Assembly (NCBI RefSeq): GCF_009914755.1
Contig: NC_060934.1
Origin: the human T2T-CHM13v2.0 reference genome, Homo sapiens
Reading direction: 5' to 3' (one strand)
DNA length: 64,000 bases
Below the pieces are notes generated by a model, which saw only the letters and a list, made by a program, of their open reading frames with translations, was not told the origin of the DNA and searched no databases. Below, piece by piece: positions 28,033 through 30,720 of this stretch. Position 1 is the first letter of the stretch. Each line of letters starts with the position of its first letter. The position numbers and the translations under genes were made by a program.

Positions 28033-28199
28033 CAGTGCTTCTCAAAGTTTAATGTGCATATGAATCACCTGGGAATTTTGTTAAAATGCAGATTCTGATT
28101 GAGTAGCTCTGATGTGGGAGCCAAGTTTCTGCATTTATAACAAGCTTCCCAGGTAGCACCAATGTTGCTGGTAAACAGACCACACTTTGAACAGCAAGG
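28033..28199 (+). mobile_element. MER5A1-like hAT-Charlie element, full length (copy A)
   Basis: cagtgcttctcaaa...cacactttgaacagcaagg; 8-bp TSD-like flanks ttctagcc/ctctagct. Confidence 0.85.
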
Positions 28200-28276
28200 C
28201 TCTAGCTAACATAATTTAAATCCTCAGTGATCAGCTTGATTCCTTCTTTAAAAATGTATATTAAAAAAAAAAATGG

Positions 28277-28586
28277 GGCCAGGCGTGGTGGCTCATGCCT
28301 GTAATCTCAGCACTTTGGGAGGGTGAGGCAGGCGGATCACTAGGTCAGGAGTTGGAGAACAGCCTGACCAACATGGTGAAACCCCATCTCTACTAAAAAT
28401 ACAAAAATTAGCTGGGCGTGGTGGTGCGCACCTGTAATCCCAGCTACTCAGGAGGCTGAGGCAGGAGAATCACTTGAACCTGGGAGGCAGAGATTGCAGT
28501 GAGCCAAGATCGCACCACTGCACTCCAGCCTAGGCAACAGGGCAAAACTCCATCTCAAAACAAACACAAAAAACAAACAAAAAAAA
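28277..28586 (+). mobile_element. AluS
   Basis: Alu consensus. Confidence 0.9.
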
Positions 28587-28681
28587 CCTTTCAAAAAATA
28601 AATCTTCACTTATAATAGATTTAGTCAACTCTTTAAACAAAATCCTTCAATTATGGGCAGAGGAAGGGTTCTCTAGAATAC

Positions 28682-28935
28682 CTTTCAATTTGGTCCTTCT
28701 GGTCAATCCTGGAAAGCTGTATACGTAGATGAGAGGTTTTAGCTTCCGGTCAGAAAAAGCCACAACTTCACAGGGGATGTTAGTTGCCATGACGCCCACA
28801 ATTCCATTACTACACTGCAGTACAGTCTTTTTCTTGGTTTCAATATTAATAAATATTACATAATTCCCACAAGGGTAGCAAATGGTGTTGTCGTTGACAA
28901 AATGAACATTCTGCTTAGGGAATCCTTGCACCCAT
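28682..28935 (-). CDS. CFAP43: CFAP43 exon 2 ([12 protein letters not shown]...RRTKLK)
   Basis: Acceptor cccaaag|A, donor G|GTATT; 254 nt; in frame with exon 1; overlaps ORF 28647..28931. Confidence 0.95.
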
Positions 28936-30159
28936 CTTTGGGAAAAGATATGTCAACATCAATATAATACATTTCAAATAATTTTTTTTTTTTAACAAAG
29001 CAAAGGGTCATCAAAATCTTTGAAACATTTCTATTTTCATGTCCTTTCTGCCCCCAATTTCTAAGATAAAAGAACACACATGCTGGCTGTGAGATCCATT
29101 TGAGTCAATGAATTATAGAAATTTAAATGTAGACCTAAAGTTCCGTAGGTCTCCCAGGCCTTCTTCAGATAACTTTTTCAGCAAAGGAAACTCTCTGACC
29201 AAACCTGAGAAAGTCTCAGAAGGACTTCTGGGGTCTTCTATACTTGGAAGACAAAAAGTGAAAATAACAGAGAAAAGAGCTTGATCTCAACACAGTGGCA
29301 TCCTGGGCCATTCTTTTATAATTAGTTTGATTTTTTAAAATAAACTTTAAAAAACAACTTTGCATAGGACAGCCTGCTTTGTGGTTGTTAGCAGAGTAGG
29401 AAAATTGCTTATTTACACAGATGAAGAGTATGTGGCCATATTTTAGATTTAAAAATACAGATAAACGTAGAAAATAAAAGGAATGAAGTCGACGTGAATG
29501 AAAGGCTAGCACACAAAAAGAACATACTCTCAAGTAAGGAGTGCGTGCTAGGTGTATGCTAGAAAGGAGAGGAGATGAAGGAGATTCTATTTTTATTTAA
29601 ATATTAAAGGTATGCTTGAAGATGGTGGAAAAGGCAAGTGAAGGACACTGGTTTGGTGAGAAACCTCGAGACATTAGAGTGTCCAGGACTAGCAGGGGAT
29701 GCTGTATAGAGTGGAGGTGGGTGCTGGGAGGAACACTCTAGAATGTAGGGGAAAAAATGCCACCTATATCTGCGCAGTGCTTGATGCTTTTCAAAGGCTA
29801 CTATAAATGCAAATAAATCCAAAGCTAGTGGATAGGAGTTAGAAGGAAAGGATTCAGGGACCTAACTTTGGGGAAAATCACCAAAGGTAGCAAGGACGGG
29901 ATCCGGGCTGTCGCCAGGTGGAGGGGGAGGGGGATGTGATCAGAAGACCCGGATCACTAGCGGGAATCCTGAGCTAGAAGGAAGAGATGAAGGGTGCAGG
30001 GGACGTTGCTGGGTAAGAGACGGAGGGTCAGGGTCGCAGAATAAGGAGTGGGAAAGACAACTGGGGACGGGGTCAAGGAACAAGGGGATGGGGAGCGGAC
30101 AGGGGAGGTCACACGGGGAGGGAGGCTGAGGGAAGGCACTGGGGGCAGAGGGGAAGAGG

Positions 30160-30590
30160 TCGAAGCTGCGGGGAAAGCCGCCCTAAGGAACCGGAGGGAG
30201 AGGAGGGAGGAGGGGACGTGGGGCAGGAGGTTCCGCGAGACCCAGATCGGTCGCGGGGCCGTGAACACCGCACCTCACGGACAAGGACGCGCCGCCGGCG
30301 GAGTGGGGGCCTTCGTCGCGCTCCCGGCCTTGCGCCATGGGCAGTGTTTTCCTCAGGCGGGAGCAGGCAGCGCACGCAGCACCCCAGGGCGGGTCGGTTA
30401 CCTTTCCGCCGCCGCGGGGCTGCGGGCCGCGACGCCGCTGCTGTGTACACCCGTATCCCGGAGACCGTAAGCCCCGCACCCATTGGCTCTGCGCTTTGGC
30501 CCGCTCCCTTCTGAGCCGAGCAGATTGGTGGAAGGTCTGCCGCTCTCGGCCAATGGGTGAGCGGCAAGCCAAGCGAGGGGCGGGCCCCTT
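30160..30590 (-). promoter_or_regulatory. CFAP43 CpG-island promoter: three CCAAT/ATTGG boxes (~30482, ~30524, ~30550), GC box (~30577-30584), X-box-like GTATCC-C-GGAGAC (30453-30465)
   Basis: High CpG/GC content around exon 1; motifs read directly; RFX X-boxes are typical of ciliary gene promoters. Confidence 0.75.
30274..30338 (-). CDS. CFAP43: CFAP43 coding exon 1 (MAQGRERDEGPHSAGGASLSV-R)
   Basis: ATG at 30338 in a CpG island; donor AG|GTGCGG; 65 nt; N-terminus matches CFAP43/WDR96. Confidence 0.95.
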
Positions 30591-30720
30591 GCTGTTCAAA
30601 GTGTGGTCTGTTTACCAGCAACATTGGTGCTACCTGGGAAGCTTGTTATAAATGCAGAAACTTGGCTCCCACACCAGATCTACTCAATCAGAATCTGCAT
30701 TTTAACAAATTTCCCCAGGT
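30587..30720 (-). mobile_element. MER5A1-like element (copy B), inverted and ~97% identical to copy A, truncated at an Alu
   Basis: Reverse complement aligns to 28067-28199 with 3 substitutions and 1 indel. Confidence 0.9.

What the first reader, a model, noticed from the sequence alone, without database searches (positions are those of the whole stretch)
28033..30720. Near-identical inverted MER5A1 pair bracketing the CFAP43 promoter and exons 1-2
Seen: 28067-28199 and the reverse complement of 30587-30720 differ by only 3 substitutions and 1 indel, and the inner 87 nt are identical. Known: MER5 elements predate the eutherian radiation, so independent copies should be far more diverged. Seen: identity stops exactly at the transposon terminus (caagg|ctctag vs caagg|ggcccg), mismatches cluster at the outer ends, and copy B ends at an old AluJ. 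Inference: two old insertions are being homogenised by gene conversion, or one was templated from the other. The pair encloses 2.4 kb holding the TSS, ATG and exons 1-2. Pairing could loop this block, and crossover would invert it and inactivate CFAP43, a gene whose loss causes sperm flagellar defects (MMAF).
Basis: partly seen in the sequence, partly recalled or inferred. Interest (0 to 1): 0.85.

Follow-up and report, generated by a model that had tools for sequence, protein, structure and literature searches.

The report
Near-identical inverted transposon fossils flanking CFAP43 start
Two inverted copies of an ancient, dead DNA transposon on either side of the CFAP43 promoter and first two exons are far too alike for their age, most likely because one was recopied from the other during DNA repair, and nothing shows that this affects the gene.

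Summary
Copy A (28033-28199, +) is a full-length MER5A1-type hAT fossil with its own 8-bp target duplication. Copy B (30587-30720, -) lacks the first 34 nt. Over the shared 133/134 nt they differ by 3 substitutions and 1 one-base indel, and the inner 87 nt are identical. In the whole T2T genome B is A's best match at 97%. The other 39 scored matches (of 1449 candidates) are 75-91% identical. A and B share 22 states that depart from the family majority. So sequence passed between the two sites long after the family decayed, roughly within the last 2-33 My.

I cannot settle how. I favour gene conversion or homology-templated repair of an old copy B (about 0.5), because identity ends exactly at the transposon terminus and the pattern is mosaic (0/87 against 4/46 differences). 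The main rival is a young templated inverted partial copy of A (about 0.33). It is supported by a 9-of-11 direct repeat flanking B, a target site unlike hAT sites, and no trace of B's missing end. Primate and other mammalian orthologues would decide, and none were available here.

The looping, inversion and infertility claims are unsupported. This is a new instance of a known process, of modest interest.

The parts
28033..28199 (+). Copy A: full-length MER5A1-type non-autonomous hAT fossil (167 nt), in CFAP43 intron 2
   Evidence: Matches family copies end to end (several hits span query 1-167). nhmmer against a profile of 28 other copies gives E 2.5e-49. Its divergence from the family majority at positions 35-167 is 27/136, against a mean of 22% in other copies. 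As single-stranded DNA it folds into a long hairpin: -28.4 kcal/mol, z -3.4.
28025..28032 (.). Left target-site duplication of copy A (TTCTAGCC)
   Evidence: 6 of 8 in register with 28200-28207. It has the TCTAG core of the hAT target NTCTAGAN (passage of PMC2836564).
28200..28207 (.). Right target-site duplication of copy A (CTCTAGCT)
30587..30720 (-). Copy B: the same element without its first 34 nt, 131-264 nt upstream of the annotated CFAP43 TSS (30456)
   Evidence: BLAST against A: 97.0% over 134 columns, A positions 35-167. nhmmer E 5.3e-33, model positions 38-169.
28113..28199 (+). Inner block of A, identical to 30587-30673 (87 nt), ending at the transposon terminus
   Evidence: alignment. 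All 22 A-derived columns are shared by B, while other copies share at most 9. A against other copies in this block: mean 64%, maximum 71%.
30587..30673 (-). Inner block of B, identical to 28113-28199
28067..28112 (+). Outer block of A; it holds all 4 differences from B (30674-30720)
   Evidence: A against other copies in this block: mean 79%, maximum 87%. B shares 3 of 5 A-derived columns, and other copies also reach 3. It contains a 30-nt perfect A/B run, 28077-28106.
30576..30586 (-). 11-mer directly after B's terminus (GGCCCGCCCCT in element orientation): one copy of the flanking direct repeat
   Evidence: 9 of 11 identical to the 11-mer at 30717-30727.
30717..30727 (-). 11-mer across B's truncated end (GGCCCGGACCT in element orientation): second copy of the flanking direct repeat
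   Evidence: Among random 134-nt segments of the window, 0.23% show such a repeat (7 offsets allowed). Locally, 2 of 789 11-mers reach 9/11 or better, and one of the two is the inner flank itself.
30721..30744 (.). About 24 unassigned nt between B and the alignable Alu body
   Evidence: Unique in the window at up to 3 mismatches. It does not align to the 5' ends of three other Alus.
30745..31050 (+). Alu next to B, with a degenerate 5' end and an A-rich tail
   Evidence: Alignment with three other Alus of the window. SRP-RNA-like Rfam hit at 30882-31028, 69.7 bits. No supported target duplication was found.
28200..30586 (-). Enclosed 2387-nt block: end of intron 2, exon 2 (28682-28935), intron 1, exon 1 (30274-30456) with ATG and TSS, and 130 nt of core promoter
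   Evidence: Spacing. Gene features come from the hub's RefSeq table and were not tested here.

Best explanation
Copy A and copy B are two copies of a long-dead MER5A1-type hAT element that exchanged sequence one-way, long after the family had decayed. I think the most likely route is intrachromosomal non-allelic gene conversion, that is, homology-templated repair of a break. In this reading an old, 5'-truncated copy B next to the CFAP43 CpG-island promoter was repaired using inverted copy A, 2.4 kb away, as template (or the reverse).

The most recent tract covers at least the inner 87 nt. It stops at the transposon terminus because homology ends there. The outer 46 nt carry an older layer of similarity. 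On this reading the pair is a by-product of repair and has no role of its own.

Shown: the near-identity, the shared derived states, the exact stop at the terminus, and the mosaic pattern. Inferred: that B pre-existed as an old insertion, the direction of transfer, the repair mechanism, and the lack of function.
For: 1. B is A's closest relative in the genome (97%), and no other scored match comes near 97%: the 39 others are 75-91%, with the 91% match only 79 nt long (40 of 1449 candidates scored).
2. A and B share 22 states that depart from the majority of 28 other copies, against 1 A-only state and a few B-only states. The shared sequence is as decayed as ordinary copies (27/136 against a mean of 22%). 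The common ancestor sequence was therefore already old.
3. Identity ends exactly at the family terminus, which was verified on 21 other copies. A homology-limited process predicts this. For a random duplication breakpoint it would be roughly a 1-in-100 coincidence (my estimate).
4. The pattern is mosaic: 0 differences in the inner 87 nt against 4 in the outer 46. P = 0.014 if the four differences are spread evenly, or 0.041 if counted as three events. In the inner block B shares 22/22 A-derived columns. In the outer block it shares 3/5, which other copies also reach.
5. A 30-nt perfect run in the family's most conserved core (28077-28106) could anchor strand invasion.
6. Second MER5A-like copies within 1.5 kb are common (6 of 28 loci), so an old neighbour copy is not unlikely.
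7. The process is known for neighbouring Alus within about 10 kb (passages of PMC6598467 and PMC8230782).
Against: 1. B's flank is GC-only (GGCCCGCC). It does not resemble the hAT target NTCTAGAN, whose central TA is its best-kept part (PMC2836564 passage). Copy A and several other copies do show that target.
2. B's first 34 nt are absent. No remnant lies beyond the Alu (nhmmer found none; local alignment was not above shuffles, 395 of 500 shuffles scored at least as high).
3. B is flanked by a 9/11 direct repeat, as a secondary insertion with a target duplication would be. An old hAT duplication left next to a terminal deletion could also give this.
4. Unrelated copies are only 64-79% alike. 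This is far below the roughly 92% similarity that section 2 of PMC3966225 gives as the floor for efficient conversion. The 134-nt arms are also at the low end of efficient homology (PMC2583991 passages). Conversion therefore needs either similarity kept high since insertion or a repair event anchored on short conserved patches.
5. None of 8 neighbouring MER5A pairs in the sampled loci reached 90% identity.
6. No outgroup sequence was available, so concerted evolution was not tested directly.
Confidence: 0.5

Rival explanations
1. Young templated insertion. B did not exist until, within roughly the last 30 My, a break or stalled fork beside the CFAP43 promoter was repaired by copying about 130 nt of copy A in inverted orientation (template switching of the FoSTeS/MMBIR type, or fragment capture). 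The event duplicated 6-11 nt of the target. The differences at the outer end are later mutations, or errors of the copying itself.
For: 1. A 9/11 direct repeat flanks B (0.23% of random segments show one).
2. The target site is GC-only and unlike hAT targets.
3. B lacks the first 34 nt and no remnant exists nearby.
4. B begins exactly where A's strongest internal hairpin stem begins (28067, repeat I21).
5. The reading needs no conversion between poorly matched short repeats.
6. The shared derived changes are mostly G/C to A/T (14, against 4 the other way). This fits a history spent in A's AT-rich intron rather than beside a CpG island.
7. Templated insertions and short-range inverted template switches are described in human and ape genomes. 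I saw this in search listings and abstracts only.
Against: 1. The copy would have to end on the last base of the transposon by chance.
2. All four differences fall in the outer third (P = 0.014).
3. Junction microhomology is 0-2 nt at best (read).
4. The 2.4-kb distance and 134-nt length exceed the short-range events named in the abstracts listed.
Confidence: 0.33
2. Late transposase-driven copy. A primate-era hAT transposase acted on old copy A, or on its 3' end plus an internal pseudo-end, and moved a sub-element 2.4 kb away. The new copy has an exact terminus and a short target duplication.
For: The exact 3' terminus. The flanking direct repeat is 6/8 if read as an 8-bp duplication shifted by one base. 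hAT elements hop locally (recalled), and second copies are common near MER5A copies (6 of 28 loci).
Against: B has no 5' terminal repeat. The target is unlike NTCTAGAN. No DNA transposon family is active in humans (section on DNA transposons of PMC5753468), and the last primate hAT activity is recalled as about 40 My ago. That age would predict about 13 differences in 133 nt rather than 3-4 (my estimate from the rates used).
Confidence: 0.04
3. Selection. Both arms are kept alike because the inverted pair is functional, for example as shared transcription-factor sites or as a promoter-intron pairing element.
For: B lies 131-264 nt upstream of the TSS (hub annotation). The identical block carries a CCAAT motif and a forkhead-like GTAAACA core. 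The motif meanings are recalled.
Against: Selection cannot make two independently decayed copies share 22 derived states; a transfer is still needed. GTAAACA occurs 16 times in the window against 10.05 +/- 2.98 expected, so it is not special. A lies in an intron and B upstream of the TSS, so they are not on one main transcript. By my reading of the strands, an upstream antisense RNA would carry the same sense as the intronic copy, so no duplex would form.
Confidence: 0.03
4. Assembly artefact, or an insertion private to this haplotype.
For: Only one assembly could be examined. Collection scans for B's outer flank found no other record (0 hits).
Against: The region is unique and euchromatic and carries a normally ordered RefSeq gene model (hub annotation). 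A 134-nt inverted copy with 4 differences and clean junctions is not what a mis-join or collapse produces. The 3-4 differences argue for some age.
Confidence: 0.03

Closest known systems
Non-allelic gene conversion between neighbouring Alu elements (Aleshin & Zhi 2010, as cited in PMC6598467 and PMC8230782; passages seen)
   Same: Nearby copies of a dispersed repeat, within 10 kb, become more alike than their family relationship predicts. Similarity is confined to the repeat.
   Different: Here the repeat is a roughly 100-My-old DNA-transposon fossil of 134-167 nt, whose unrelated copies are only 64-79% alike. Alus are younger, longer and more similar to each other. Whether both copies are old insertions is unproven.
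Templated insertions and short-range template switching (MMBIR/FoSTeS; PMC8421209 and PMC7954356, abstracts only) and transposition-independent gap filling at TIR transposons (PMC8277862, passages)
   Same: A nearby sequence is copied, here in inverted orientation and within 5 kb. The copy is flanked by a short repeat. A palindromic TIR element is involved.
   Different: In the Pack-TIR cases the transposon captures foreign filler sequence. Here part of the transposon itself is what was copied. The copy ends exactly at the element's terminus, and junction microhomology is not evident.
Inverted-repeat-mediated inversion polymorphisms (PMC3961182, abstract only; review PMC2583991, passages)
   Same: An inverted repeat pair brackets a unique segment, so an intrachromatid crossover would invert that segment.
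   Different: The arms are 134 nt with an 87-nt perfect run, well under the 300-500 bp quoted for human meiosis. No inverted allele is known to me from these searches.
mir-544 precursor family (Rfam RF01045), derived from MER5A1 (PMC5424272, abstract and passages)
   Same: A's internal hairpin (28064-28162) scores 64.1 bits and B's (30624-30723) scores 51.6 bits.
   Different: Both scores are below the gathering score of 66.5. These are transposon relatives of the miRNA locus, not annotated miRNA genes.

Membership tests
MER5A1-type non-autonomous hAT DNA transposon fossil | Dispersed multi-copy family whose copies share both termini and have unrelated flanks | tested here: met
   1449 candidates genome-wide, 40 scored; in 21 other near-full-length copies, similarity starts at CAGTG... 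and ends at ...CAAGG.
MER5A1-type non-autonomous hAT DNA transposon fossil | 8-bp target-site duplication of the NTCTAGAN type | tested here: met
   For copy A: TTCTAGCC / CTCTAGCT, 6 of 8; motif from PMC2836564. For copy B the result is inconclusive to negative. Only one terminus exists, and its flank GGCCCGCC has no TA core.
MER5A1-type non-autonomous hAT DNA transposon fossil | Palindromic, MITE-like structure | tested here: met
   The reverse strand of A matches the family profile (E 2.6e-6). Hairpin fold z -3.4 for A and -2.4 for B.
MER5A1-type non-autonomous hAT DNA transposon fossil | Match to the curated Repbase/Dfam consensus of that name | not testable with these tools
No repeat library is held. 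The indirect evidence is an Rfam mir-544 hit of 64.1 bits, and mir-544b precursors match the MER5A1 consensus (PMC5424272).
Non-allelic gene conversion between paralogous repeats | Paralogues closer to each other than to any other family member, with shared derived states | tested here: met
   97% between A and B, against 91% for the closest other match (a 79-nt piece) and at most 79% for matches longer than 150 nt. 22 shared derived columns.
Non-allelic gene conversion between paralogous repeats | Similarity confined to the homologous element | tested here: met
   It stops at the terminus on the inner side. On the outer side it stops at B's truncated end.
Non-allelic gene conversion between paralogous repeats | Mosaic tract structure | tested here: inconclusive
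   0/87 against 4/46 differences, P = 0.014, with contrasting block statistics. This is a post hoc test on four differences.
Non-allelic gene conversion between paralogous repeats | Both copies present at orthologous sites in outgroups, with paralogues clustering by species | not testable with these tools
   No primate or other mammalian genome is held.
Non-allelic gene conversion between paralogous repeats | Substrates similar enough (about 92% or more) and long enough before the event | tested here: inconclusive
   Family background is 64-79% and the arms are 134 nt. Thresholds come from PMC3966225 section 2 and PMC2583991 passages. The state of the copies before the event is unknown.
Templated inverted insertion (template switch / MMBIR type) | Inserted segment is a copy of nearby sequence, flanked by a short target duplication | tested here: met
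   The inverted copy lies 2387 nt away. The flanking repeat is 9/11.
Templated inverted insertion (template switch / MMBIR type) | Microhomology at the junctions | tested here: inconclusive
   0-2 nt, read.
Templated inverted insertion (template switch / MMBIR type) | Empty site in outgroups | not testable with these tools
   No outgroup genomes are held.
Inversion-prone inverted repeat (NAHR substrate) | Arms at least as long as the efficient processing segment | tested here: not met
   134 nt with a longest perfect run of 87 nt, against 300-500 bp in human meiosis (PMC2583991). The same passage notes exceptions under 50 bp for repeats 5 kb apart.
Inversion-prone inverted repeat (NAHR substrate) | An inverted allele observed | not testable with these tools
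   No population or long-read data are held. The listing (10 of 29 papers shown) names no such allele.

The most novel reading that the evidence does not exclude
The pair has been held in concerted evolution since both copies inserted roughly 100 My ago. The driver would be recurrent germline breaks at the CFAP43 CpG-island promoter, repaired again and again from the intronic inverted copy. The same exchanges would occasionally resolve as crossovers. That would give a recurrent 2.4-kb inversion allele that removes the promoter and exons 1-2 from the gene, and so a hidden cause of some unexplained sperm-flagellum cases.
Probability: 0.04. Interest if true: 0.7.

Novelty: new member of a known kind. 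Interest (0 to 1): 0.3.

Why it matters
This is a clean single-locus case in which sequence age and repeat-family age disagree. It shows that dating old transposon copies by divergence, or treating them as independent neutral markers, can fail locally.

If outgroups show that both copies are old, it would extend gene conversion between dispersed repeats, so far described mostly for Alus and LTRs, to a very short and very old DNA-transposon fossil. It would also give a lower bound on the homology that such exchange needs in the germline.

If B proves young, it is an example of a promoter-proximal templated insertion that added about 130 nt, with a CCAAT motif and a forkhead-like motif, 131 nt upstream of a cilia gene's TSS.

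The clinical angle is weak. An inversion is mechanistically possible but unobserved, and CFAP43 disease is recessive.

Tried and rejected
1. I looked for the missing 34 nt of B beyond the Alu. nhmmer with a profile of 28 other copies found nothing in the whole window at E <= 10 and nothing in 31020-31260 at E <= 1000. A local alignment was no better than shuffles: 395 of 500 shuffles scored at least as high.

2. I looked for a target duplication of the Alu to decide whether 30721-30744 is Alu or flank. The best match was a 7-mer. 279 of 2000 shuffles, and 20% of AT-matched window 25-mers, did as well. This is unresolved.

3. I looked for a nearby source of the unassigned 24 nt, which would have been a sign of a multi-step template switch. 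There is no second copy in the window at up to 3 mismatches.

4. I looked for independent records of the locus. There were 0 matches in genome contigs and 0 in viral contigs for a 27-nt flank. Those collections are not expected to hold primate DNA.

6. Pace & Feschotte 2007 is not held. The family's age therefore rests on three things: 'MER5A1 was identified in Eutheria' (figure legend, PMC5424272), a MER5A copy in sirenians (passage, PMC3758187), and recall.

7. A's left 80 nt look unusually close to the family majority (6/80 against 22/90 on the right, Fisher P = 0.003). I reject this as evidence. The comparison copies were chosen by BLAST similarity to A, mostly over the left part, which biases the majority towards A.

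8. Forkhead/RFX site idea. GTAAACA occurs 16 times in the window against 10.05 +/- 2.98 expected, and 3 of 100 shuffles reach 16. It is not distinctive, and the motif meaning is recalled.

9. Control with neighbouring MER5A pairs. 6 of 28 loci hold a second copy within 1.5 kb, giving 8 pairs. The best pair is 86.4% over 118 nt (L022). Four pairs are 68.5-84.4% over 32-95 nt. Three pairs have no alignment longer than 17 nt.

Rows left out. The family alignment used the 28 non-self loci returned (L003-L030) out of the 40 scored candidates; the scored matches that were given no locus were not included. One search used the 22 of 30 loci whose profile match reached both ends.
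Full report
**What is there**

The window holds two inverted copies of one palindromic DNA-transposon fossil.

- Copy A (28033-28199, + strand) is full length (167 nt). It starts with CAGTG and ends with CAAGG. It is flanked by an 8-bp target duplication, TTCTAGCC / CTCTAGCT, 6 of 8 in register.
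- Copy B (30587-30720, - strand) corresponds to A positions 35-167.
- The repeat finder gives 129 nt at 98% complementarity with 2387 nt between the arms.
- A global alignment gives 3 substitutions and 1 one-base indel, all in the outer 46 nt. The inner 87 nt are identical.

By the hub's annotation, A lies in CFAP43 intron 2 and B lies 131-264 nt upstream of the TSS (30456). The enclosed block therefore holds the core promoter, exon 1 with the ATG, intron 1 and exon 2.

**Is it more than family likeness?**

Yes.

- A search of the whole assembly with copy A found 1449 candidates and scored the best 40. It returned 41 match rows: A itself at 100%, B at 97%, and 39 others at 75-91%. The 91% match covers only 79 nt of the family's most conserved part, and matches spanning more than 150 nt of the query are at most 79%.
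- I aligned A and B with the 28 other copies for which loci were returned. Over the B-covered columns those copies are 66% alike on average, with a maximum of 79% (378 pairs). A and B share 22 states that depart from the family majority, against 1 A-only state and a handful of B-only states.
- The shared sequence is as decayed as ordinary copies: 27 of 136 columns differ from the majority, against a mean of 22% (range 15-46%) for the others.

So A and B last shared a sequence long after the family had aged.

With 3 substitutions in 133 nt, K = 0.023. At the recalled rate of 1.0e-9 per site per year that is about 11 My, with a Poisson interval of 2-33 My. At 0.5e-9 it is 23 My.

The family is listed as hAT (Table 5 of PMC5753468). 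It is 'identified in Eutheria' (figure legend of PMC5424272), and a MER5A copy is reported in sirenians (PMC3758187 passage). I could not test the subfamily name against a repeat library. Indirect support comes from Rfam: mir-544, whose precursors match the MER5A1 consensus (PMC5424272), hits A's hairpin at 64.1 bits and B's at 51.6 bits. Both are under the gathering score of 66.5.

**The boundaries**

Inner side. Identity stops exactly at the family terminus. In 21 other near-full-length copies, likeness between copies ends at the same base and the flanks are unrelated.

Outer side. B simply lacks the first 34 nt.
- A profile of the 28 other copies finds no remnant anywhere else in the window, and none in 31020-31260 even at E <= 1000.
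The alignable Alu body begins near 30745. The 24 nt between it and B are unique in the window and do not align to the 5' ends of three other Alus.
- I found no supported target duplication for that Alu.

Two further features bear on B's origin.
- The 8 nt after B's terminus are GC-only and bear no likeness to the hAT target NTCTAGAN (PMC2836564 passage). Copy A and several other copies do show that target.
- B is flanked by a direct repeat. The 11-mer after the terminus and the 11-mer across the truncated end match at 9 of 11 positions, 6 of them consecutive. Only 0.23% of random 134-nt segments of the window show such a repeat. Locally, 2 of 789 11-mers reach that level, and one of them is the inner flank itself.

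**Mosaic pattern**

The two blocks behave differently.

| | Inner block (28113-28199) | Outer block (28067-28112) |
|---|---|---|
| A against other copies | mean 64%, maximum 71% | mean 79%, maximum 87% |
| A against B | 100% | about 90% |
| A-derived columns shared by B | 22 of 22 | 3 of 5 |
| Most shared by any other copy | 9 | 3 |

The comparison copies were themselves picked as the genome's best matches to A. B's outer block is therefore still at or above the top of the range, but far less sharply so than the inner block. If the differences were spread evenly, all four falling in the outer 46 nt has P = 0.014, or 0.041 if counted as three events. This test is post hoc and rests on four differences.

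**How it most likely arose**

Two readings survive.

(a) Gene conversion or homology-templated repair between an old copy B and copy A.
- It explains the exact stop at the terminus, because homology ends there.
- It explains the mosaic as a recent tract over an older layer.
- It fits the known homogenisation of neighbouring repeats within 10 kb.
- It also fits the fact that second MER5A copies are common nearby (6 of 28 loci).
- Its weak points are the atypical target site, the missing 5' end, and the poor substrate. Unrelated copies are far below the roughly 92% similarity quoted for efficient conversion (PMC3966225 section 2). At 134 nt, recombination in cell culture is already down 20-fold (PMC2583991).
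- None of 8 neighbouring MER5A pairs in my sample reached 90%. One inverted pair, in L022, is 89% complementary over 90 nt, above the 79% background.

(b) A young templated inverted partial copy of A inserted beside the promoter.
- It explains the flanking repeat, the GC-only site, the missing end, and the start of B at the base of A's internal hairpin.
- It needs the copy to end on the transposon's last base by chance.
- It also needs the differences to cluster by chance, through error-prone synthesis, or through a later conversion.

I put (a) at about 0.5 and (b) at about 0.33. The remainder goes to late transposase action, selection, and artefact or private insertion. The choice between (a) and (b) depends on outgroup genomes, which no tool here holds.

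**What it does**

Probably nothing.
- The arms are not on one main transcript. By my reading of the strands, an upstream antisense RNA would carry the same sense as the intronic copy, so no duplex is expected.
- A crossover between the arms would invert the block and disable the gene. However, the arms are short, longer inverted Alu pairs bracket the same block (I1-I3), and the listing of my CFAP43 + inversion search shows no such allele (29 papers hold both words, 10 were listed, and I saw titles and abstract openings only).
- Supplements were not consulted.

**Verdict**

This is a real and tidy anomaly explained by a known class of process, and it is a new instance rather than a new kind. 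Interest is modest (0.3).

Noticed in passing
L022:1499-1588 and 1717-1806 (own genome, contig C20 near 53.877 Mb): A second inverted pair of MER5A-type copies is 89% complementary over 90 nt with a 128-nt spacer. A third partial copy lies between them. The identity is above the 79% maximum seen between unrelated copies. This may be another locally duplicated or homogenised pair.
   Followed up: partly
L003, L006, L007, L013, L022, L027 (own-genome loci): 6 of 28 sampled MER5A loci carry a second MER5A-like match within 1.5 kb. This is more than I would expect from the family's overall density (recalled). It suggests local hopping, nested insertion or local duplication.
   Followed up: partly
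window 28064-28162 (+) and 30624-30723 (-): The internal hairpins of both copies match the Rfam mir-544 precursor model at 64.1 and 51.6 bits, just under the gathering score of 66.5. They are transposon relatives of that miRNA, and neither is annotated as a miRNA here.
   Followed up: partly
window 28159-28177 and 30609-30627: The identical block carries a CCAAT motif and a forkhead-like GTAAACA core. In copy B these sit about 153-171 nt upstream of the CFAP43 TSS. The motif meanings are recalled. GTAAACA is not enriched in the window (16 occurrences against 10.05 +/- 2.98 expected).
   Followed up: partly
window 30745-31050: The Alu next to copy B keeps many CpGs. Relative to three other Alus it has a 15-nt GC-rich insertion near the end of its left half, and its 5' end is not alignable. 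This fits its position at the edge of the promoter CpG island.
   Followed up: no
window about 31051-31200: The sequence after the Alu tail looks like a MIR element, judged from memory of the consensus. This was not tested with any tool.
   Followed up: no
window 28033-28112: Copy A's left 80 nt differ from the family majority at only 6 positions, against 22 of 90 columns on the right. This is probably an artefact of choosing the comparison copies by similarity to A.
   Followed up: partly
window 27440-27805, 28255-28609, 30745-31050, 31191-31527: Four Alus surround the block and form several inverted pairs of 114-213 nt at 76-82% complementarity (I1-I5). These are longer, though less similar, inverted repeats bracketing the same promoter and exons.
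   Followed up: no
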